This document shows, piece after piece, positions 13,616 through 42,937 of a stretch of 64,000 nt of DNA. Origin of the DNA: Naegleria gruberi. Lineage: Eukaryota. Where the stretch lies: NCBI GenBank assembly GCA_000004985.1, contig GG738861.1. One strand, given 5' to 3'. Under the pieces are notes generated by a model that had not been told where the DNA came from, searched no databases, and saw nothing but the letters and a program-made list of their open reading frames with translations. A program made the translations under genes and the position numbers. The number at the start of each line of letters is the position of its first letter. The first letter of the stretch is position 1.

Positions 13616-14857
13616 ATGGAGACAAGAAGTAGGATATTCACAAGTTCTGGCAGCACCAGTAACTTGTCAAATGCAGAGGAAAATACATTACCTGCTAATA
13701 TCCACCATCATCAAGTGAATGTAGAGAAGGAAACAGATCCAATACCTAATTTTAAAAGAACAGTCGATTCGAATAAGAAGATTTCTAATATCTTTAGGCG
13801 AATTGTGAGAAGTTGTTGCAATAAGATTCCATTTTTTGGTAGTTTTACTTCATCAAATGATGAAAGTATTGTTGGAAGAAAAGTTGTGGAACAAACTTCC
13901 GAAACCAATTTTCCATATTGTAAAATATTAATGCTAGTAATACTTGGTTTTCTAATTGCCTCCTTTATATTGGGAGTTGTACTTTACATGATTGTTTCCC
14001 GATGGGTAAGAGATCAAGCAGGTGATTTTATTGTTCATGAAATTGTTCGTAAAGGAAATTTAAAACACATTTTACAACAAGTGGTTGATCGTGTTTATTT
14101 GTATGATGTTGAGGGAGATTTCAAAAATCCAAGATATCAACTTGCAGTGGATACTTCTCATGATGGTGAATTCTCGGTTCTCGTTCAACACATGTTAAAT
14201 AATCCAGAGTTTGAGAATTATGAAGAACAAATCCATAGAAATGAGAAGAGATATACCATTGTTGATATTGGAGCTCATGATTGTGTTAGTGGTTCAAATA
14301 GTTTCAATTTTATCAAGATGGGATTCGATGCAATTGTTGTTGAGCCATCTCCAGTTAATATGAAATTGTGTAAGAGTAATTTGGAGAGAGCTAGAAGAAC
14401 ATTTAAATTTGATCAACATCATCCTCGTCAACGTATTGAATTTGTGGAGGCTGCCATTACTGATGCTGATGGAACAGCAACTTTGGGCAATAGAGATGAG
14501 AAGGATAGTTGGGGAATGCAATTCTTTGTGGATAAGGAGAATCCAAATGCTGGAAATCTTGGTAATGCTCCAGTTGTTAAAACTCTCAAATTTGGAACAT
14601 TTGCTGCGGAAAGTGAGCTTCCAAAGAAGTTTTCAGTCTTGTCTATCGATGCTGAAGGTCAAGATGTTAAGATTTTATTGAACTTCTTGAGAGAGGGCTA
14701 TAAACCATTATATTTGATTTATGAAGGACTTCATGGCACTGGTTTAAAGGTAGAAGTGATGAGTACCTATGGTTATCAATTGATTGGTGAGAGAGGATGG
14801 AATCAAATCTATGTTTACAGAGTTGAAACTGATACTATTTTAAAGAAAAAGAAATAG
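13616..14857 (+). CDS. FkbM-family (Methyltransf_21) SAM methyltransferase with type II membrane topology
   Basis: The N-terminal tail is followed by one TM segment (ILMLVILGFLIASFILGVVLYMIV) and then a catalytic domain with an FkbM-like core (RYTIVDIGAHDCVSGSNSFNFIKMGFDAIVVEPSPVNMKLCKSNLERA ... IEFVEAAITDADGTATLG). Confidence 0.7.
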   Translation: METRSRIFTSSGSTSNLSNAEENTLPANIHHHQVNVEKETDPIPNFKRTVDSNKKISNIFRRIVRSCCNKIPFFGSFTSSNDESIVGRKVVEQTSETNFPYCKILMLVILGFLIASFILGVVLYMIVSRWVRDQAGDFIVHEIVRKGNLKHILQQVVDRVYLYDVEGDFKNPRYQLAVDTSHDGEFSVLVQHMLNNPEFENYEEQIHRNEKRYTIVDIGAHDCVSGSNSFNFIKMGFDAIVVEPSPVNMKLCKSNLERARRTFKFDQHHPRQRIEFVEAAITDADGTATLGNRDEKDSWGMQFFVDKENPNAGNLGNAPVVKTLKFGTFAAESELPKKFSVLSIDAEGQDVKILLNFLREGYKPLYLIYEGLHGTGLKVEVMSTYGYQLIGERGWNQIYVYRVETDTILKKKK

Positions 14858-16929: not shown

Positions 16930-17832
16930 TTAATTGCCATCGAGCAATGGAACATTGTCCAAAATACCCTTTTCAGGAGCATATTTACCATAGTGCAATT
17001 CATTCATGTCAGTGCTGGAAATCTTTGTCCAACCATCAGAACGAATCAAATATACATTGATAATACCACCAGAGTAAGCATCACGGTGAGTAGCGTGATA
17101 AATAGCACGACGACCTAATTCACAAGCTTCTTCTTCTGTCAAATCAGCACGATAACCTTGATCCAAAACACCATAGGCATATAATGATCCTGAACCAACT
17201 GAGAATCTTGTTCCCTTCAAACGAGTACCATCGTTATCAACCATGAACAAGTTTGGACCTGTGTGATCCCAACCAGCAATCATAGTACCCATAGAGAGTC
17301 CATGATCCTTATATTGATATACAATATTGCTGAGCAACTTTGATGCAGCAGCAACAGAAATACGACGCTTATTTCTCAATTCATACAATCTACATTGCAT
17401 ACCCAAATAACGTTCCCAAAATTGACAATCAGCAGCACCACCAGCCATAGTTCCCAAAAGGTATGGATTGATTTCAATGACCTTCTTAACATTTTGTGAT
17501 GAAATGTAATTACCCATAGAAGCACGGGAATCGACTGCAATCACAATACCCTTATTAAATACAAAACCTAATGTTGTAGTACCCTTGGCATAAGTCTTTT
17601 CCAATTTTTCCTTTTGATGTATAAAACCAGAATTATTGAGTGATGGTGGAAGAGCAAATCCTTGTTGTCCATCCAATCCGTATGAAATATCTAAACAAGG
17701 ATCTTGAAGAATAACATTATCTTCATCTTGAGGTCCAATAGAAAGTGAAGTAAAATCACTCGATAATACACTCGACAAGTTTGCTCCTTGCTTGAATGAT
17801 TTTGTTGTCTTTGTTGATGGGAATGAGAGCAT
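16930..17832 (-). CDS. Proteasome subunit beta type-5 (PSMB5/Pre2-like)
   Basis: A propeptide is followed by the mature N-terminus [21 protein letters not shown] and by [26 protein letters not shown] and [21 protein letters not shown], all typical of beta-5. True ATG. Confidence 0.9.
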
Positions 17833-19957: not shown

Positions 19958-21321
19958 TTATTGGGATTTCAAAGTAGAAATTTCCTTTTCCAAAACTTCC
20001 ATTCTCTTCTTGAGTTGTTCCATTTCACGTTCTCTGGCAGCAATCTTGTCACCTTCCTTGAAACCACGTTGAATCATCCAGTCATCGTTCAAGAACTTTG
20101 ACAAATAGTTTCTAATAGAATCTGGCAACAAGACAACAATTCTCTTGTCAGCACTGAGATTGAGCTTCTTAGCAGCAGCAATAGCAGCATACATAGCAGT
20201 ACCAGAGGAACCACCACACAAAAGACCTTCTTCCTTAATCAATTCTCTAGCAATAGTGAATGATGGTTCATCTTCAGTCTTAATCCAAACATCAATCAAG
20301 CTTCTATCCAAAACATCAGGAACAAAGTCATAACCAATACCTTCAACTTGATAAGTTCCGACCTTATCATTTTCAGGATCAGCCAAAAGTGAACCAACTG
20401 GGTCAGCACCAACAACAATGATACCAGGAACCTTTTCCTTGAGCTTCTTTGCAATACCAGAAGCAGTACCACCAGTACCAACACCCATGACAATAACATC
20501 AATTTTACCACCAGTTTGCTTGAGAATTTCTTCAGCAGTACCTTCGTAGTGAGCCATTGGGTTGTCAATATTCTTGTATTGATCCAAAATGTGAGCAGTT
20601 TCACCAATTTCTTCCTTCATACGAGCAGCAACACCAATATGTGAATCAGGTGAGTTCCAGTCAGCTTCAGTTGGAGTTCTGATAATATCAGCACCCAAAC
20701 CCTTCAAGACAGAAACCTTTTCTTGAGACATCTTTTCTGGCAAGGTAATAATCATCTTGTATCCCTTAACAGCAGCAGTCAAAGCCAAACCAATACCAGT
20801 ATTACCAGAGGTTGGTTCAATGAGAGTGTCACCTGGTTTAATACGGCCACTCTTTTCAGCTTCCAAGAGCATACGTTTACCAATTCTATCCTTGACTGAA
20901 CCACCAGCGTTGAAATATTCACATTTAACCAAGACTTCACATTCAACTCCGTGCATCTTTGGAACACGATGCAAACGAACCATTGGGGTGTTACCAATAG
21001 CATCAAGTACGGTATCAAAAATTTGTCTACATTTACAACATCATGGGTTAGAATTTTGTGGGTAACATGCGAGATTGAATTTTGGTAGAATTTTAGTTGA
21101 ATGCATATAACAAAGCACATATATATTCATCAAAGTGGATTTTATGAATTGGATCAAAATTATTGAATTATTATTAATATAAATAATAATTGGATAATTC
21201 AATAACAAAAAACCAAAAGCAACAAACACCACACAAGATGGATTTTTAAAAATAAAAACAACATCGGTTGTTATTCTACGATAGTAATACAATACAATAC
21301 TTACTCTCTGTTGGCAGACAT
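19958..21321 (-). CDS. Cystathionine beta-synthase-like PLP enzyme with no Bateman/CBS-pair module: join(21321..21305,21026..19958)
   Basis: Exon 2 has a CBS-type catalytic core (IGNTPMVRL; [20 protein letters not shown]; [22 protein letters not shown]; [16 protein letters not shown]) and ends in a short coiled coil ([25 protein letters not shown]). No upstream ATG is in frame. A 17-nt exon 1 (ATGTCTGCCAACAGAGA|GTAAGTATT) joins through a 278-nt intron with a ttCTAACcc branch site about 20 nt before tgtAG. The result is [24 protein letters not shown], 361 aa. Confidence 0.8.
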
Positions 21322-22099
21322 ATTGTTTATGTAGTGTGCGTTGATTGCTTTCTAAAAGACTCTTTTAAGTGTGTGGGTAAAGAGAAAAAAAATGTATTTT
21401 TTTCTAAAGAATTTTAAATTGTCGCCGCGCAAGCATTAACCAAGTCCTAACTGGGTTCAACACAATATTGGAGGAGTTTTTGCAATGAACCACCAGCTAG
21501 GAGTTAAAAATCTCTATTGTAAACTTGGTTTCCAGCGTCGCTCCTTTTAAATAATCGTCGTTTTGTAAGATGTGGATTCTTTTTGGTGCATAATAAAATA
21601 ATATGGATATGAATTTACAGTTGTTTCAAATCAGATTATTTCATGTTGTTTTTCATTGTGGTTGTTGAAATTTGTGAACGTTCTGGATTTGGGTTGTTGT
21701 AAAGGATCAGCGGAGTTTATTATTTTCTCATGAATTAAAAATATCTAATATAGTTGCTTAAAATTGTGGTGTTTCAACTCTGATCTCATTCCCCTCAATA
21801 TCATTTCACATTTAATAAATATTAAAATTTAACATGACTTGAATTCATTGCTGCCAAAATTGAGCGTCCTGTTAATACTAAAAAATCACAATTTTTCAAT
21901 CCTTCATATTCCAATTTGCAGATTTTAATTTGCAGCTATTAAATTAATCTAATGCACATTGAATAATACTCTTAAAATACATCCAGGATAAAAAAGCTGA
22001 TCAATATGATGTAGATTTATGAATTTCCTCAATTCAAAATCATTATTATGGCTCCAAACCAAAAACATCATCAGCAAGTGGAAACAAACAAAATGAAAG

Positions 22100-22790
22100 T
22101 GTTGATGTGAAGAAGATTGAAAACTACTCTGAGTGGTACTCTACCAAGAGTGATTTCCTTGATTATTATGAAGTGGGGAAACCATTTGGAACAATTGCAC
22201 AAATGAACTTATGAAGAAATTCTTGCGGTTCCAGTTATTGAGGGTAGGAAGACTGAAACTGAAAAGTTTTCTGCCGCAGATTTCACAACAACCATTGAGG
22301 CTTTCATTCCAACAAACGGAAGAGCTGATCAAGCTGCCATAAGTTGGGTGTTATGATCATGGTGATGACAAGGATATGGTCTTGCCACCAAGTTGCCTTC
22401 ACTCTAGTTGTTCTTATTCCTTTTTCTGTAAGAATAAGGATAATAGTCAACGGAAATTTTCACTCTCCTAGACCAAAATGGGATTCGTATTAAGATTGAT
22501 TATCGTTTGGAAAAGACTCAAATTGGGAAATTCAAATATTGGGAACTTTATGGTATTCCATTGAGAATTGAAATTGGTCTAAAGGAAACTGGCCAAGCCA
22601 AGCTCTGTAGAAGAGACAATGGAGAAATGGACAGTCTCTCTTGATCAACCCACTGCTCAATATATCAATGGCACTTTGGATATGATTCACAATTCCATGT
22701 TGGAAAAAGCTTCACTGGGTGGTTGTAAAGTTTTCTGTACAGAATTGACTGACAGAAAACCAAACAAGAGGGCTATTTGGTAAATTGAAT
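22100..22790 (+). pseudogene. Decayed prolyl-tRNA synthetase (class II ProRS) pseudogene fragments
   Basis: Fragments in different + frames are broken by stops: IENYSEWYSTKSDFLDYYEVGKPFGTIAQ; [38 protein letters not shown] (compare eukaryotic Pro[28 protein letters not shown]); HGDDKDMVLPP (compare HGDNMGLVLPP); an anticodon-binding-like piece KFKYWELYGIPLRIEIGLKETGQAKLCRRDNGEMDS. The motif-2/3 catalytic core is missing. Confidence 0.55.
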
Positions 22791-23391
22791 AAACAAATTA
22801 GATTTAAAGTGTGTAAGTAAACAAGGGACAATTTTCTAATGCTCATAGTTTTTCATTAAGGGATTCAAGGAGATTAAGTTTCTCTAGGTTCTTCTGAATA
22901 TAAGTAGACCTTAAAAAATAGCTGAAAGCTCAACATTTTTTCTCATGAAGTCCCTTTCCTCAAATCCATTCACTATGTTGTTTAGTATTAGAGAAATTGA
23001 TAGGACTTCAATTTTAGCAATCATGCAAGCATATTGAACAAGAAAGAAGCAAGATAGTGGAGAAGAAAAACCAGGGGTAACATCATTTACTCAGGAATAA
23101 ACTTCTTCTTGATAAATTTTCATTAAGAGAGTAGAATCTATCACGATGTTGCAAAGACATAAAAGGATCGGAACCTAAGACAGTGTTTTGTAATTGCCAT
23201 TTTCTATACCAAATCAAATCTCTAAAATACTGTAACATTGGTTCTGTACAGGAAACGTCTGATGCTTTTATTGACCAAAAAAGTTCACTTTAATAATCAC
23301 AAACATCAACAACAAGATGTGTAACCAACCTAAAATAAATGAATCCAACTACCTAGCGCACAGACACTGGAAACTAAACGAAAAAAATTCA

Positions 23392-24597
23392 ATGAGAACA
23401 ATCCTTGTTTTATTGGCTTTGTGTGTTTTAGCACTCGCTGTGAATGGTGCTGACATTAGTTTTATCAGCTCATTTGATGATTATAAACTTTCTTGCAACT
23501 TAAAGACAAAGAATAATACAGTGAATCCAATCTCATCTGGTTATTTGGTTGGGTTATATGCTGAGGGTGGCTCTAGCTATCGTTTGGCCATGATTGACTT
23601 GGACAGTAATGCCATTACTTACATTGGTAATGATGTCTTTAATTCTTATTCATTGGGTGGTGTCGCCATCGACCCAATTAACCACAGATTATTCATCATG
23701 GTTGTTCCATCTCAAACTCCAACAATGAGAACATACAGTCTATTAACTGGTAAAATGTTGTATCAAGTGAATACTTCTGAAATTTCCAACTTGGTTTTTG
23801 AACCAGCATTGGGTAATCTCTATGGATTAGGTTACAATGATTCAATGGTCACAATTTTGGATATTGATTGGGAAACTGGTGAGGATACAATTGTTGCAAC
23901 TACTCCACTCAAAGGATCTACCAATATGATTCGTAATATTAATCCAGCAACATCTGTGATGTATATTTATGGATATGATAGTACCTATTTCAATACTATG
24001 ATTGCTGTCAATTTAACAAGTGGAAGTTGGAAATATTTCAATCCTCCTTCTATTACTTCCTATGTTGCTTTGTTTTCAAATGGTTATCAAGGTAAATCCA
24101 ATGTCCTTGCAATTGCTGAATACGAAGGAAAATATGCTCCTGTTTCCATTGATAGCAATACAAATGTCACTGTAATTGGTTCAACAAGGTTTAATTCATT
24201 GGTCCTGTCTGACAAGGCTTATGACGTTAAGGAAAATGTCATTATTGGAACATTGGAAGATACAAGCAAGATTGTAGTTCTTAATATGACTAGTGGATTG
24301 ATTGTAAAACAAATTCCATTGAATAGTGGTGCTTCTCTTGGACCTGTCTCATACCAACAAATTTGTGTCTGTTGTATTGCTTCTCAAAACACAAGAAGTA
24401 TCTATGGTGGTTCATTGGACAAGTCAATTGTTCTTCCATGTCAAACCAATACTGCATCATCCACCAAAGTAATTGGTACTACTAGTAGTAATGGTACTAT
24501 CAAACCATCTCAGAGCAGAGTTAGTTCTTCCAATTCAAATTTCAATATTTCACTTGTATTCATTGTGATTGTAGGATTTTTGATGGGTCTGTTCTAA
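23392..24597 (+). CDS. Secreted, probably GPI-anchored, N-glycosylated surface protein
   Basis: The cleavable signal peptide starts at the internal ATG 23392 (MRTILVLLALCVLALAVNG). There are many NxS/T sites, a C-terminal S/T-rich stalk and a hydrophobic tail (ISLVFIVIVGFLMGLF*). No family recognised. Confidence 0.55.
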   Translation: MRTILVLLALCVLALAVNGADISFISSFDDYKLSCNLKTKNNTVNPISSGYLVGLYAEGGSSYRLAMIDLDSNAITYIGNDVFNSYSLGGVAIDPINHRLFIMVVPSQTPTMRTYSLLTGKMLYQVNTSEISNLVFEPALGNLYGLGYNDSMVTILDIDWETGEDTIVATTPLKGSTNMIRNINPATSVMYIYGYDSTYFNTMIAVNLTSGSWKYFNPPSITSYVALFSNGYQGKSNVLAIAEYEGKYAPVSIDSNTNVTVIGSTRFNSLVLSDKAYDVKENVIIGTLEDTSKIVVLNMTSGLIVKQIPLNSGASLGPVSYQQICVCCIASQNTRSIYGGSLDKSIVLPCQTNTASSTKVIGTTSSNGTIKPSQSRVSSSNSNFNISLVFIVIVGFLMGLF

Positions 24598-24617
24598 ATA
24601 GATCATGTAGAATAAAA

Positions 24618-26072
24618 TTACTTTCCAAATATTTTTAATCTTTGAATTTCCAATTGTGATTGAATATGATTTAAATCAGTGTTTTGATCCAAAAGCACTT
24701 TGGTTTGAGTTGAATCATTCATTAGAGTGAAGTGCTCAAATAAAGGTTGTTTTAAAAGGATGGAATCATCCATCTCCGTGTTAAAGGTGTCTGAATTTTC
24801 TTGTGAAATTTTCATAGTATCTGAGAGCACCACAAAAGGAATATTGTAAAATCTGGAAATCGAATAGAGTACGCTTGTGCCAGTCTTGTTAGAAATTACA
24901 ATGTCTCCATGACTATAATGGATTGAATCTGATCCTACACACATAAGATCAACCTTTCCAGAACGTGAGAGTAAAGCAACTGCTGCTTCAGTGCAAACTT
25001 GAACTCTTAGATTTTTGATACCCTGATCTAAGGCAAAGTCCTTCAGAGATTTAGCTGTTTTGTACCCTTCCTTTTCTGGCTGAGACTCTGTACAATAGAT
25101 GGTTAAATCAATGGATGCATGTTTTGCATGTAAGTCTAACATTAAATCTTTCAATGATTTAATAACAACACTGCTCCAACTGTGGGTCAATATTGAGATT
25201 TTCTGGGTGTTATCTTTTAAAAATTCTGATTTCACATAATTTTGAAACTTATTTGATAGTAACTGAGTATTGTTTGATATCTTAATGCCAAATTTGTTCA
25301 ATCTGTCTTTCATTTTCTGTACCATATTTTCAAAAGTTTGTTCAGAAATTTGTTTGACAATACTATCCTGATCAAATTGTAATTCACCATTCATTATTTC
25401 TACAAGAGATTGAACAGCCACATTCCTAATCATTGGCATTTCAATTCTACATTGATCTAAAATCCAAACAATGTCTCTCAGTTTCGAAGTTAAAAAAACA
25501 GCTCTCATGCTATCCATATCTATTGAAGAATTCATCAATTTGAAATAATCTGGTATATCTTCAGATGAAAATAAGTTCAAGGCCTTTTTCATAATATCTA
25601 TCGTTTTCAAAGCAATGGTAGTTGCACCATCTGTAAAATTATTAACAATGGTATTGTCTATTTCTACCAATAATTCAGTCTCCAATCCATAGAAAAAGTA
25701 TAATCTGTGAAGAGTGTCTCTTAGATTGGGAACTGTTTCATGTAGGGTGGGAGTGGTGCTGTCATTCATACCCTTCCTCAGAAATTGCTCAGTATCAAAA
25801 ACATTGAATGAATCGTGTTCCCAATCAATCTTGAATCCTAAATTATCAAGTTGGCTAGGGATATCTTTTGAATTTTCTACTGACAATCTAAATAGAAAAG
25901 GATAAACAATAAATCCCTTTCCATTATTTAAAGGCAAATATTGTGGACGACCACTTCGGATGAAGTTCAAATGTTTTCCAACTTGTAATTGTGTTTCTTC
26001 TTGGATTTCTCTGAAGGCACTCCATCGGGCTTTCCACAAAATAATCACCAACCCTATAATCAAACCGATCAT
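24618..26072 (-). CDS. IF-2B family protein (eIF2B alpha/beta/delta or MtnA-like fold); N-terminus unresolved
   Basis: The core matches the IF-2B family (ILTHSWSSVVIKSLKDLM...IDLTIYCTESQPEKEGYKTAKSL...VQVCTEAAVALLSRSGKVDLMCVGSDSIHYSHGDIVISNKTGTSVLYSISRFYNIPFVVLSD). The track start 26111 is a TTG. The first ATG (26072) gives a hydrophobic N-terminus, MIGLIIGLVIILW. See the overlapping Nudix-like ORF. Confidence 0.6.
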   Translation of the reverse strand: MIGLIIGLVIILWKARWSAFREIQEETQLQVGKHLNFIRSGRPQYLPLNNGKGFIVYPFLFRLSVENSKDIPSQLDNLGFKIDWEHDSFNVFDTEQFLRKGMNDSTTPTLHETVPNLRDTLHRLYFFYGLETELLVEIDNTIVNNFTDGATTIALKTIDIMKKALNLFSSEDIPDYFKLMNSSIDMDSMRAVFLTSKLRDIVWILDQCRIEMPMIRNVAVQSLVEIMNGELQFDQDSIVKQISEQTFENMVQKMKDRLNKFGIKISNNTQLLSNKFQNYVKSEFLKDNTQKISILTHSWSSVVIKSLKDLMLDLHAKHASIDLTIYCTESQPEKEGYKTAKSLKDFALDQGIKNLRVQVCTEAAVALLSRSGKVDLMCVGSDSIHYSHGDIVISNKTGTSVLYSISRFYNIPFVVLSDTMKISQENSDTFNTEMDDSILLKQPLFEHFTLMNDSTQTKVLLDQNTDLNHIQSQLEIQRLKIFGK

Positions 26073-26241
26073 TTGAAGAATAATCCACAGGTGGATTGTT
26101 AACCAAGTCAATAGAACCAGAAATTGAAGCCCACATTTTCGGATAAGAATTAACCTTCTCCGATCTTTTAAATAGTAGAATATGTGATTTTTCTTCCTTT
26201 ATCACTTCAATAAAGCCAGTGGCTACTCTTCTCCATTTCAT
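25924..26241 (-). CDS. Nudix-like N-terminal ORF (105 aa) overlapping the IF-2B family gene in another frame
   Basis: MKWRRVATGFIEVIKEEKSHILLFKRSEKVNSYPKMWASISGSID resembles the start of a Nudix fold. The Nudix-box-like REIQEETQL lies in the downstream ORF's frame (+1). This may be the 5' part of a single gene joined by a frameshift or an unrecognised intron. It may also be spurious. Confidence 0.3.
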   Translation of the reverse strand: MKWRRVATGFIEVIKEEKSHILLFKRSEKVNSYPKMWASISGSIDLVNNPPVDYSSNDRFDYRVGDYFVESPMECLQRNPRRNTITSWKTFELHPKWSSTIFAFK

Positions 26242-26312
26242 TTTTTTAAGTTTTGATTTAACTTGAATCTACATATTAAATAAATTAATTTGAATATTTC
26301 CTGATTATAATA

Positions 26313-31912: not shown

Positions 31913-33583
31913 TTATTTGACAAAGTATTTGCTGTAAAAGGATTTGAGTGGCTGTAGGGTCTCTTGACTTTCAGTCATGCTATTGGACTGTGAAACATGA
32001 TCTGGAGAATTATTAGAATACCGAGATGAAGTAGAGGAAGATGGATTAAATTGAGGAGGATTAGGAGAGCAGAATGACTCGATTATATTTGTCTCATTGA
32101 GAAGGGTATCACTAAGCAATGGGTTTTGAGTAGATGAATTTACAGAGAAGGATTGCCTTGTTGAGTTCTTTAGATATACTTCTACTTTTTCTATATTGTC
32201 TGTGGATCCAACAATTTTGAATGCAATTTCATTGGATGAGCTCGACAGACCAGGGGACATTGGAATGGAATTAATACTTGCCAGTGTTGTCATGTTTGGT
32301 GTTGTCTGAACGTCACGAAGCATGCTTGTTTGACACGATTTACAATCTCGCTTTTCTTCGTCGTCACTTGAAACAGAAGTATTGCATTCTCTCTTTGGTT
32401 GAGGTTTTTGGAAATGTTTGGCATATGTGGATTTTACAGGTTCTCGTGAGCTAATCTTTTTGGAAATATTTTCTACTGCTTGGTTTGCTCTGGATTTGGA
32501 GGTTGACGATGTCAAAGGTTTTTTCAACTCTGTCTTCTTTGAAGGCTCTGGTTTTGTATATTTGGAGGTTGGTGTTTTTGATCTTGTTGTTGCGACTTTA
32601 GATTTGATAGATGTCTCTTTCTTCTCTTCCTTCATCGAGCTTACCTTAACGGATTGCGGCCTCTTTGGAGTTGTACTTTTTCTTGATGGTTTAATCCTTC
32701 TTGGCTCATAATTTTCCTTGTCACTATCAACAGAGCTTATGGAAATATCAGCCTTCTTTTTCTTTGAGTTTTTAGCAGATTTTCCAGAGAAGATTTCATT
32801 TTCCATATATTTTTCTCCATAATTATCAAGTTTTGTAAATAATTCATCTGTGTTTGTCGACATATTTGAGGCAGTAGATATCATATCATCCACAGGTCCC
32901 ATTCTGTTTGATCTCAATGGAGTGACAGAAGAAAGAGATGTATCAATATCTCTTGGCTTGTATGTATTCGAGAATTCTGTCAACTTCCCATAAAGATCAC
33001 TCAAAGAATCATCCAAATTATGCTGAGTAGGTTTAGGTTTTGATTTTTCATTGTATTTTTCCAAATATCGTTTCAAAGCACTTGCTGTAGAGTCAATTGA
33101 ATCGTCCATACTGATGTTTTCTGAAATCTTTGAAGATAATTTCTTGTTGGAAGGATGAATAAGGCTGCTATCACTCAAGTCATCGTATGCAGCATAGGAA
33201 GATCGTTTTGAGGCACTTGAGGTTGTTTTTTTGACATTACTTTCAATCTCCTTTGCTAAATTATTCATCTCCTCCCACTTTGTTGATACCGATGAAGAGT
33301 TAGACATCATGGAAGAATTTAGACTTTTCATATTTCCAAGAGCAGCAGTACTTGTTGTGGTGACACTAATATTATGATGTTTTTGTACACTAGGTGGCGT
33401 AAGCCTTGACATTAAACTCGACAATAATTCTGATGAATCCTCATCCCCAGTTGTTGGACTCTTTCTTCTCGGGGTTGAATTTACTGATGATGGATAACTT
33501 CTCACAACATACGATGATGAACGGTCCGTATCCTCTCCAGCGTCAGAAACAGTTGACGACGACGAGGAAGAATATTTACTCAT
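31913..33583 (-). CDS. S/T/K-rich disordered protein, 556 aa
   Basis: True ATG. Low complexity runs throughout (MSKYSSSSSSTVSDAGEDTDRSS...). It is continuous and coding-like, with no domain. Confidence 0.5.
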   Translation of the reverse strand: MSKYSSSSSSTVSDAGEDTDRSSSYVVRSYPSSVNSTPRRKSPTTGDEDSSELLSSLMSRLTPPSVQKHHNISVTTTSTAALGNMKSLNSSMMSNSSSVSTKWEEMNNLAKEIESNVKKTTSSASKRSSYAAYDDLSDSSLIHPSNKKLSSKISENISMDDSIDSTASALKRYLEKYNEKSKPKPTQHNLDDSLSDLYGKLTEFSNTYKPRDIDTSLSSVTPLRSNRMGPVDDMISTASNMSTNTDELFTKLDNYGEKYMENEIFSGKSAKNSKKKKADISISSVDSDKENYEPRRIKPSRKSTTPKRPQSVKVSSMKEEKKETSIKSKVATTRSKTPTSKYTKPEPSKKTELKKPLTSSTSKSRANQAVENISKKISSREPVKSTYAKHFQKPQPKRECNTSVSSDDEEKRDCKSCQTSMLRDVQTTPNMTTLASINSIPMSPGLSSSSNEIAFKIVGSTDNIEKVEVYLKNSTRQSFSVNSSTQNPLLSDTLLNETNIIESFCSPNPPQFNPSSSTSSRYSNNSPDHVSQSNSMTESQETLQPLKSFYSKYFVK

Positions 33584-42675: not shown

Positions 42676-42860
42676 ACTATTATAATTAAACTAATCAATG
42701 AATTCATTATTTACTTCTATTGCTCATAAAAAAGTGACTTTTTACCTTTGGATAGAGACTTATATTCAACATTGTGGATGGAGAAAAGAATGATTATCAA
42801 GGTATTGTCTAATGCTGTATATGAAAACAAATATATGAATAATAATTCATAATTATGTAT

Positions 42861-42932
42861 TCCCGTGTAGTCCAATGGCTAGGATACCTGGCTTTCACCC
42901 AGGAGGTCCGGGTTCAATTCCCGGCATGGGAG
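42861..42932 (+). tRNA. tRNA-Glu (anticodon UUC)
   Basis: TCCCGTGTAGTCCAATGGCTAGGATACCTGGCTTTCACCCAGGAGGTCCGGGTTCAATTCCCGGCATGGGAG folds as a cloverleaf. The acceptor stem is TCCCGTG/CATGGGA with one G-T pair. The anticodon stem is CCTGG/CCAGG around the loop cTTTCAc. The T-arm is GGTTCAATTCC. There is no intron. Confidence 0.9.
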
Positions 42933-42937
42933 AATAC

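What the first reader, a model, noticed from the sequence alone, without database searches (positions are those of the whole stretch)
22100..22790. Prolyl-tRNA synthetase pseudogene in an otherwise ORF-free 2-kb interval
The only ORF-poor stretch of the window (about 21330-23310) carries ProRS-like peptides in three + frames, broken by stops and with the catalytic core missing. Examples are ...[13 protein letters not shown]..., HGDDKDMVLPP and ...YWELYGIPLRIEIG.... This looks like a decaying duplicate of an essential aminoacyl-tRNA synthetase.
Basis: seen in the sequence. Interest (0 to 1): 0.5.

Follow-up and report, generated by a model that had tools for sequence, protein, structure and literature searches.

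The report
Dead prolyl-tRNA synthetase copy in Naegleria
The stretch is an unannotated, badly decayed extra copy of the amoeba Naegleria gruberi's own prolyl-tRNA synthetase gene, an ordinary pseudogene that shows clearly how this compact genome loses dead DNA through deletions.

Summary

**Source.** The window is Naegleria gruberi NEG-M: several window ORFs match its RefSeq proteins exactly.

**What is there.** Window 22050-22784 (+) carries collinear ProRS-like segments in all three + frames.
- A frameshift-aware alignment recovers 236 of 575 codons.
- These are 74.6% identical to N. gruberi's own ProRS (P0020), which lies on a different scaffold. Identity to other heterolobosean ProRS is only 54-62%.

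**Lesions.**
- One in-frame TGA and about eight frameshifts.
- Deletions of parent residues 82-222 (motifs 1 and 2), 276-~312 (first half of motif 3) and 446-548 (C-terminal domain).

**Independent check.** A metagenome contig from a sister strain (L001, 96% identical) shares all of these lesions, so they are not assembly errors.
- Each strain also has private disabling changes. The window lost 10 nt and 30 nt, the latter including GRSY-stop. L001 lost 13 nt and has a new TAG.

**Constraint.** Outgroup-polarised amino-acid changes are 26 on the copy versus 3 on the parent (p = 1.5e-5). No spliced model can rescue the frame.

**Open point.** Whether the copy arose by retroposition or DNA duplication is unresolved, because ProRS is intronless in relatives.

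It is an ordinary pseudogene of low interest.

The parts
22050..22067 (+). Degenerate remnant of the Lys/Gln-rich N-terminal extension (parent about residues 30-38). The window lacks 10 nt (AACAACAAGG) after 22066 that the sister strain keeps.
   Evidence: L001 reads MAPNQKQQQGSSASGNKQ in one frame; in the window this stretch is frameshifted.
22068..22175 (+). Block A: parent residues 39-77 (N-terminal part before the catalytic core), with a shared 9-nt in-frame deletion (QVI) after 22142.
   Evidence: 79% identity, E = 1.2e-15
22176..22185 (+). Junction of deletion 1. Parent residues 82-222 (141 aa: class II motif 1, the TSETIMYP loop and motif 2) are missing and the frame changes.
22186..22344 (+). 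Block B: parent residues 223-275, the only surviving piece of the catalytic core. It contains an in-frame TGA at 22204-22206 (Arg229 to stop).
   Evidence: 80% identity, E = 7.7e-22
22345..22455 (+). Junction of deletion 2 (parent residues 276-~312, including the first half of motif 3). It is followed by short blocks LGVM / HGDDKDMVLPP / VAFTLVVLIP / FCKNKDNSQ in alternating frames, separated by deletions of 7, 2, 1 and 16 nt.
22456..22623 (+). Block D: anticodon-binding domain, parent residues 358-415, with a 6-nt deletion after 22584. The invariant PGW is changed to QIG.
   Evidence: Pfam HGTP_anticodon 36 bits; E = 1.6e-20
22624..22711 (+). A 2-nt deletion (frameshift), then block E: parent residues 417-445.
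22712..22784 (+). Block F/G. After an in-frame deletion of parent residues 446-548 (103 aa of the C-terminal domain), parent residues 549-573 follow with one further frameshift at 22769. The window has lost 30 nt after 22779, covering the codons for RSY, the stop codon and the start of the 3' flank. The sister strain keeps these, and the deletion lies between near-identical CTATTT(G/T)GTA repeats.
21365..22049 (.). AT-rich (29.6% GC) upstream part of the ORF-free interval. It contains no recognisable gene, domain, RNA family or repeat.
22785..23274 (.). Downstream part of the ORF-free interval, up to the start region of NAEGRDRAFT_48227. It contains no recognisable feature and differs from the sister strain by many substitutions and indels.

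Best explanation
Window 22050-22784 (+) is a non-functional, unannotated pseudogene. It is a dispersed extra copy of Naegleria gruberi's own cytosolic, eukaryote/archaeal-type class II prolyl-tRNA synthetase gene.

**Timing (inferred).** The copy arose inside the N. gruberi lineage, after it split from N. fowleri, another Naegleria species and Willaertia. It arose before NEG-M and a roughly 1%-divergent sister strain separated.

**Decay (shown).** The copy landed between the cystathionine-beta-synthase-like gene and NAEGRDRAFT_48227 and has evolved without coding constraint since. It lost 59% of its codons through deletions, gained a nonsense codon and about eight frameshifts, and is still losing DNA independently in each strain.

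**Function (inferred).** It does nothing as a synthetase. The essential function is carried by the intact 575-aa gene on another scaffold.

Homology, lesions, relaxed constraint and the non-syntenic position are shown. Absence of any RNA-level role and the copying mechanism (retroposition or DNA duplication) are inferred or unresolved.
For: **Species.** Four window ORFs are exact matches to N. gruberi NEG-M RefSeq proteins.

**Homology.**
- PDB best hit is N. fowleri ProRS 6nab, E = 1.6e-55.
- A frameshift-aware protein-to-DNA alignment to N. gruberi ProRS P0020 matches 236 codons at 74.6% identity.
- Over the same columns, identity is 76% to P0020 against 62%, 60%, 54% and 43% to other heterolobosean ProRS.

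**Lesions.** One in-frame TGA, about 8 frameshifts, and deletions of residues 82-222, 276-~312 and 446-548 that remove motifs 1, 2 and part of 3 and most of ProRS-C_1.

**Not an artefact.** The independent contig L001 (ENA ERZ929261) aligns collinearly at 95.9% and shares every one of these lesions.

**No constraint.**
- Private changes are a 10-nt and a 30-nt deletion in the window, and a 13-nt deletion plus AAG>TAG in L001. The adjacent 1281-nt gene has no indels.
- Outgroup-polarised replacements are 26 on the copy against 3 on the parent, binomial p = 1.5e-5.
- 17 of 91 residues that are invariant in five intact ProRS are changed.

**Dispersed copy.**
- The parent is on a different scaffold.
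- The neighbours conserved around functional ProRS in two Naegleria species are a Surp/PRP21 gene and a peptidase M8 gene; a serpin also lies downstream in N. fowleri. None of these is anywhere in the 64-kb window.
Against: - The parent gene's DNA could not be obtained. Nucleotide divergence, the extent of homology into the UTRs and flanks, and the exact deletion junctions are therefore not measured.
- No expression data are available, so residual transcription or an RNA-level role is not excluded.
- Between the two strains, substitution density in the pseudogene (9.4 per kb) is not higher than in the neighbouring gene (7.0 per kb). With only 7 and 9 substitutions this comparison has no power.
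Confidence: 0.93

Rival explanations
1. Origin variant A. The copy is a processed retrocopy: a reverse-transcribed ProRS mRNA inserted at a new locus, 5'-truncated and later eroded.
For: - Recognisable homology is confined to the coding region, starts around codon 30-34 and ends just after the stop codon.
- The locus shares no neighbours with the functional ProRS loci of relatives.
- The parent is on a different scaffold.
Against: - There is no poly(A) tract after the stop codon in either strain.
- No flanking direct repeats or target-site duplications stand out.
- ProRS is intronless in N. fowleri (1608 nt for 535 aa) and in another Naegleria species (1635 nt for 544 aa), so the classic intron-loss test is uninformative.
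Confidence: 0.35
2. Origin variant B. The copy is a DNA-level (segmental or ectopic) duplicate whose flanks have since decayed or been deleted.
For: - Decay here is strongly deletion-biased: every indel that could be polarised is a deletion. This could have erased co-duplicated flanks.
- The 1.2 kb of featureless AT-rich DNA around the relic could be such remains.
Against: - No similarity to the neighbours of functional ProRS loci was found in the interval or the window. Those loci are from other species, so the test is weak.
Confidence: 0.55
3. It is a live gene. A spliced or recoded transcript across the interval encodes a truncated ProRS-like protein, for example a free-standing anticodon-binding paralogue.
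For: The anticodon-binding domain is the best-preserved part, and the stitched translation passes the Pfam HGTP_anticodon threshold.
Against: - Homologous blocks in different frames abut within 0-2 nt, so there is no room for introns. The anticodon-domain region alone contains four frame changes.
- Invariant residues such as PGW are replaced.
- The two strains differ by frame-breaking indels of 10 and 13 nt, by a 30-nt deletion that removes the stop codon, and by a new stop codon.
- The consecutive UniProt accessions of the neighbouring genes leave no slot for a gene model here, which is an inference.
Confidence: 0.02
4. The frameshifts and deletions are sequencing or assembly errors in the reference, and the locus is really an intact second ProRS gene.
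For: A 2-nt difference at 26017 splits a neighbouring gene in the window but not in L001, so single errors or very recent lesions do occur nearby.
Against: An independently assembled metagenome contig (L001) shares the TGA, all the frameshifts and all three large deletions.
Confidence: 0.01
5. It is not host-derived. It is the remnant of an aminoacyl-tRNA synthetase gene brought in by an integrated giant virus; Naegleriavirus encodes a ProRS.
For: Giant viruses that infect Naegleria carry a prolyl-tRNA synthetase (PMC11043551).
Against: - The relic is closest to N. gruberi's own ProRS and shares 16 residues derived on the N. gruberi branch.
- The same paper states that endogenised viral genomes have not been observed in Naegleria.
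- No other viral-type genes lie in the interval.
Confidence: 0.01

Closest known systems
Naegleria gruberi prolyl-tRNA synthetase (P0020, NCBI 'prolyl-tRNA synthetase [Naegleria gruberi]', 575 aa), the functional parent
   Same: Collinear homology over 236 codons at 74.6-76% amino-acid identity. It shares N. gruberi-specific residues such as [31 protein letters not shown] and ELSDRKPNK.
   Different: The relic lacks 59% of the codons, including class II motifs 1, 2 and part of 3 and most of the C-terminal domain. It has a nonsense codon and about 8 frameshifts, and it lies on a different scaffold.
Naegleria fowleri ProRS (PDB 6NAB/6UYH; P0017)
   Same: Best solved-structure match, E = 1.6e-55, with the same three-domain order of catalytic, anticodon-binding and C-terminal domains.
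   Different: Only 60% identical over the retained columns. It is an orthologue of the parent, not the source of the copy.
Classical eukaryotic pseudogenes, duplicated or processed, such as the alpha-tubulin pseudogene reported for N. gruberi (PMC2115128, listed but not read)
   Same: A disabled copy of an expressed gene that evolves without coding constraint and accumulates frameshifts, stops and deletions.
   Different: Decay here is unusually advanced and almost purely deletional: at least 14 deletions and no insertions in about 740 nt. The processed-versus-duplicated class could not be assigned.

Membership tests
Functional class II prolyl-tRNA synthetase (eukaryote/archaeal type) | A continuous open reading frame of about 500-575 codons | tested here: not met
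   The longest + strand ORF in the region is 54 aa. There is one in-frame TGA and about 8 frame changes, and only 236 of 575 codons are present.
Functional class II prolyl-tRNA synthetase (eukaryote/archaeal type) | Class II catalytic core with motifs 1, 2 and 3 (Pfam tRNA-synt_2b) | tested here: not met
   Parent residues 82-222 (motif 1 at 106-116, motif 2 at 184-207) and 276-~312 (first half of motif 3 at 304-322) are deleted. There is no Pfam tRNA-synt_2b hit.
Functional class II prolyl-tRNA synthetase (eukaryote/archaeal type) | HGTP anticodon-binding domain | tested here: inconclusive
   It is recognisable as a remnant (PF03129, 36 bits on the stitched translation and 31 bits in a single frame). 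However, it is interrupted by frameshifts and the invariant PGW is replaced.
Functional class II prolyl-tRNA synthetase (eukaryote/archaeal type) | C-terminal ProRS-C_1 domain ending in ...FGRSY | tested here: not met
   103 residues (446-548) are deleted and there is no PF09180 hit. The window has also lost the RSY and stop codons that L001 retains.
Pseudogene (disabled copy of a functional gene) | An intact, closely related parent gene exists in the same genome | tested here: met
   P0020 from N. gruberi lies on a 695,587-bp scaffold while the window's genes are on a 507,294-bp scaffold. The relic is closest to P0020.
Pseudogene (disabled copy of a functional gene) | Disabling lesions that are real and not assembly errors | tested here: met
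   All shared lesions are reproduced in the independent contig L001.
Pseudogene (disabled copy of a functional gene) | Evolution without coding constraint | tested here: met
   Replacements are 26 copy-specific against 3 parent-specific (p = 1.5e-5). 17 of 91 invariant residues are changed. Strain-private 10-, 13- and 30-nt deletions and a new TAG are present.
Pseudogene (disabled copy of a functional gene) | No functional transcript or protein | not testable with these tools
   No expression data are available.
Processed (retrotransposed) pseudogene | Introns of the parent are absent | tested here: inconclusive
   ProRS is intronless in N. fowleri and another Naegleria species, so the test carries no information. 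The N. gruberi parent's DNA was not obtainable.
Processed (retrotransposed) pseudogene | 3' poly(A) tract and flanking target-site duplications | tested here: not met
   There is no A-run after the stop codon in the window or L001. No convincing flanking direct repeats were found. Both could have decayed.
Giant-virus-derived insertion | Closest relatives are viral and other viral genes lie nearby | tested here: not met
   The closest relative is the host's own ProRS, with shared derived residues. No other domain hits occur in the interval.

The most novel reading that the evidence does not exclude
The relic might not be inert. It could be transcribed from the bidirectional region it shares with the cystathionine-beta-synthase-like gene and act at the RNA level on the parent ProRS mRNA, for example as an antisense or decoy transcript. 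Alternatively it could yield a short N-terminal ProRS-derived peptide: the open frame is 58 aa in the sister strain and 35 aa in NEG-M. Nothing here tests expression. The strain-specific deletions argue against any sequence-dependent role.
Probability: 0.03. Interest if true: 0.4.

Novelty: new member of a known kind. Interest (0 to 1): 0.12.

Why it matters
- **Annotation.** The 2-kb 'empty' interval on this N. gruberi scaffold is explained by a ProRS pseudogene, which should be flagged as such. A gene caller already produced a spurious 58-aa ORF from it in the sister-strain contig (L001:649-825).
- **Genome decay.** Two strains and intact outgroup genes allow the indels to be polarised. All of them are deletions, ranging from 1 to 423 nt. 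This gives a small, clean data point on deletion-biased loss of dead DNA in a compact protist genome.
- **Drug-target work.** Naegleria ProRS is a halofuginone target (PMC7990177). The relic is not a second functional ProRS copy that could complicate target validation.

Tried and rejected
1. **Parent-gene DNA.** The look-up of encoding contigs failed for P0020 and for window ORFs, because N. gruberi is not in that index. A metagenome scan with P0020 gave nothing closer than 61% identity. No nucleotide-level divergence, dN/dS or junction microhomology against the true parent could be computed.
2. **First protein search.** Searching with the stitched pseudo-peptide missed the Naegleria proteins, with best identity 40%. 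I rebuilt the 6nab sequence from PDB alignments and searched again.
3. **Empty-site or synteny test.** I fetched the N. lovaniensis locus of the neighbouring CBS-like gene. Only that gene is shared, so the loci are not syntenic and give no information.
4. **Other content in the interval.** A six-frame Pfam scan, a permissive Rfam scan, a tRNA scan, repeat, inverted-repeat and tandem-repeat searches, and a self-BLAST against the window all found nothing. The only hits were chance-level: a snoZ185 match at 20 bits against a gathering score of 50 (E = 0.4), and short two-copy repeats.
5. **Transposon capture.** Rejected, because there are no terminal repeats and no other copies.
6. **Relic at the ancestral locus** (the functional gene having moved away). 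Rejected, because none of the neighbours seen next to functional ProRS in the two Naegleria loci fetched is in the window.
7. **Strain substitution densities as a constraint test.** Too few differences to be informative, and those in the flanks are clustered.

Full report
**1. What the window is**

The window is AT-rich (about 34% GC) and densely packed with long ORFs. Exact-sequence look-ups identify four window ORFs as RefSeq proteins of Naegleria gruberi strain NEG-M, all on one 507,294-bp scaffold:
- XP_002678555 at 13616-14857
- XP_002678668 at 16930-17832
- XP_002678557 / NAEGRDRAFT_48227 at 23317-24597
- XP_002678670 at 31913-33583

The interval in question lies between two genes. On one side is a PLP-dependent cystathionine-beta-synthase-like gene on the minus strand, with its ORF at 19958-20983 and homology continuing to about 21029. 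On the other side is NAEGRDRAFT_48227 on the plus strand.

**2. Check of the observation**

The stitched peptide gives the following matches:
- N. fowleri ProRS structure 6nab at E = 1.6e-55, followed by the ProRS of Toxoplasma, Plasmodium, human and others. PMC7990177 confirms 6NAB/6UYH as N. fowleri ProRS.
- Pfam anticodon-binding domain PF03129 at 36 bits, against a cutoff of 21.

No other part of the 64-kb window has ProRS similarity, so the intact gene is not in the window.

Window 21365-23274 (1910 nt) is the longest stretch without any stop-free frame of at least 100 codons. The runner-up is 786 nt.

**3. The parent**

I rebuilt the 6nab sequence from a PDB alignment and searched the protein collection with it. 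This returned four intact heterolobosean ProRS:
- N. fowleri (P0017)
- an environmental Naegleria species (P0018)
- Willaertia magna (P0019)
- N. gruberi (P0020, 575 aa, on a 695,587-bp scaffold, which is a different scaffold from the window's)

Over the 229 reliably aligned retained positions, the relic's identity to each intact ProRS, including Acrasis kona (P0049), is:

| ProRS | Identity |
|---|---|
| N. gruberi | 76.4% |
| Naegleria sp. | 61.6% |
| N. fowleri | 59.8% |
| Willaertia | 54.1% |
| Acrasis | 42.8% |

The three closest outgroups were used to polarise changes. This gives 16 positions where the relic and N. gruberi ProRS share a derived residue, 26 changes private to the relic and 3 private to the parent. 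The copy was therefore made within the N. gruberi lineage, late on that branch. The 26:3 asymmetry (binomial p = 1.5e-5) shows that the copy, and not the parent, lost constraint. 17 of 91 residues that are invariant in all five intact enzymes are replaced, including the PGW of the anticodon-binding domain.

**4. Anatomy of the relic**

A frameshift-aware protein-to-DNA alignment, cross-checked by a DNA alignment to the two available intact Naegleria coding sequences, gives the following order:

| Window coordinates | Content |
|---|---|
| 22068-22175 | Parent residues 39-77, with a 9-nt in-frame loss |
| junction at 22176-22185 | Deletion of residues 82-222 (141 aa) |
| 22186-22344 | Residues 223-275, with Arg229 changed to TGA at 22204-22206 |
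| after 22344 | Deletion of residues 276-~312 |
| 22345-22455 | Four short blocks in alternating frames, separated by losses of 7, 2, 1 and 16 nt |
| 22456-22623 | Residues 358-415, with a 6-nt loss |
| 22624 | A 2-nt loss |
| 22625-22711 | Residues 417-445 |
| after 22711 | In-frame deletion of residues 446-548 (103 aa) |
| 22712-22784 | Residues 549-573, with one more frameshift |

In total 236 of 575 codons remain, at 74.6% identity.

Mapping Pfam domains and motif strings on P0020 shows what has been lost:
- Motif 1 (106-116), the TSETIMYP loop (155-162), motif 2 (184-207) and the first half of motif 3 (304-322) are gone.
- Only 53 of about 173 core-domain residues survive.
- The anticodon-binding domain (335-426) is mostly present but has four frame changes.
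- The C-terminal domain (459-575) is reduced to its last 25 residues or so.

Blocks in different frames abut within 0-2 nt, so no intron model can restore a reading frame.

**5. Independent confirmation and ongoing decay**

A 90%-identity cluster mate of NAEGRDRAFT_48227 led to a 4870-nt ENA metagenome contig (L001, sample ERZ929261). L001 aligns end to end with window 21461-26276 at 95.9% identity; about 1% of aligned positions are substitutions and the rest of the difference is gaps.

L001 carries the same TGA, the same frameshifts and the same three large deletions, which excludes assembly error.

The two strains also differ inside the relic by private lesions. These can be polarised using the intact genes:
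- The window lost AACAACAAGG after 22066.
- The window lost 30 nt after 22779, between near-identical CTATTT(G/T)GTA repeats. This removed the RSY codons, the stop codon and the start of the 3' flank.
- L001 lost 13 nt (window 22282-22294).
- L001 changed AAG to TAG at 22264.

The adjacent 1281-nt gene has nine substitutions and no indels. Every indel that can be polarised, shared or private, is a deletion. There are at least 14 of them, from 1 nt to about 423 nt, and no insertions.

**6. Origin**

ProRS is intronless in two relatives:
- N. fowleri: 1608 nt for 535 aa plus the stop codon.
- The other Naegleria species: 1635 nt for 544 aa.

Absence of introns therefore says nothing here.

In both of those species ProRS has a Surp/PRP21 gene upstream and a peptidase M8 gene downstream. 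A serpin also lies downstream in N. fowleri, and copine and SecE genes lie further along in the other species. None of these has a counterpart anywhere in the window. The relic therefore sits at a derived, non-syntenic site and does not mark the ancestral locus.

Recognisable homology is limited to the coding region, from about codon 30-34 to just past the stop codon. This fits a 5'-truncated retrocopy. However, there is no poly(A) remnant, no target-site duplication and no transposon signature. I could not obtain the N. gruberi parent's DNA, so retroposition versus DNA duplication stays open.

A giant-virus origin is excluded by the host-specific shared derived residues.

**7. The rest of the interval**

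Window 21365-22049 (29.6% GC) and 22785-23274 (31.8% GC) were scanned for Pfam domains in six frames, Rfam families at a permissive threshold, tRNAs, significant repeats and copies elsewhere in the window. The only hits were a sub-threshold snoZ185 match (20 bits against a gathering score of 50, E = 0.4) and short two-copy repeats of the kind expected by chance. These stretches differ from the sister strain by many indels, including 45-nt and 28-nt ones. They are best read as unconstrained intergenic DNA.

**8. Verdict**

This is a real, previously unannotated, heavily eroded pseudogene of the organism's own ProRS. The statement that it is unannotated is an inference: the consecutive UniProt accessions D2VBK4 to D2VBK7 leave slots only for the two known intervening genes.

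The mechanism is ordinary. A redundant copy of an essential gene lost constraint and is being removed by deletion-biased decay. It is a new member of a well-known kind and of low general interest. Its use is mainly for annotation and as a small, well-polarised example of deletional decay in Naegleria.

Noticed in passing
window 26010-26025 (minus-strand gene 24618-26241): The NUDIX + IF-2B-family gene is split in the window into two overlapping ORFs, 25924-26241 and 24618-26111. The cause is a 2-nt (CA) loss in GGCACACTCC, just before the NUDIX-box codons REIQEE. In the sister-strain contig L001 the gene is one continuous 541-aa ORF. This is either a very recent disabling mutation in NEG-M or a reference-assembly error.
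   Followed up: partly
L001:649-825: The public gene call of 58 aa on the metagenome contig is simply the N-terminal ProRS remnant (MAPNQKQQQGSSASGNKQNESVDVKKIENYSEWY...) running into a stop. It is a spurious ORF call on the pseudogene.
   Followed up: yes
P0020 residues about 479-506 (parent protein, not in the window): N. gruberi ProRS carries an insertion of about 28 aa (THKDDVVLEDLSEEERKEYDAKIEEEKK) that is absent from the N. fowleri, Naegleria sp. and Willaertia ProRS. It could be a genuine lineage-specific insert or an unspliced intron in the gene model. The pseudogene cannot decide, because this region falls inside its 103-aa deletion.
   Followed up: no
window 20984-21130 (minus strand): Similarity of the cystathionine-beta-synthase-like gene to its N. 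lovaniensis orthologue continues to about 21029, beyond the ORF's first ATG at 20983. The real gene therefore probably has a 5' exon and intron. Gene order around this gene is not conserved between N. gruberi and N. lovaniensis (L006).
   Followed up: partly
window 23133-23198 and 21489-21498: Dense clusters of differences from the sister strain: 12 substitutions within 66 nt, and 4 substitutions next to a 2-nt indel. They suggest complex multi-nucleotide events or local misalignment in unconstrained intergenic DNA just upstream of NAEGRDRAFT_48227.
   Followed up: no
window 42860-42933 (+): The only tRNA gene in the window is tRNA-Glu(TTC).
   Followed up: no
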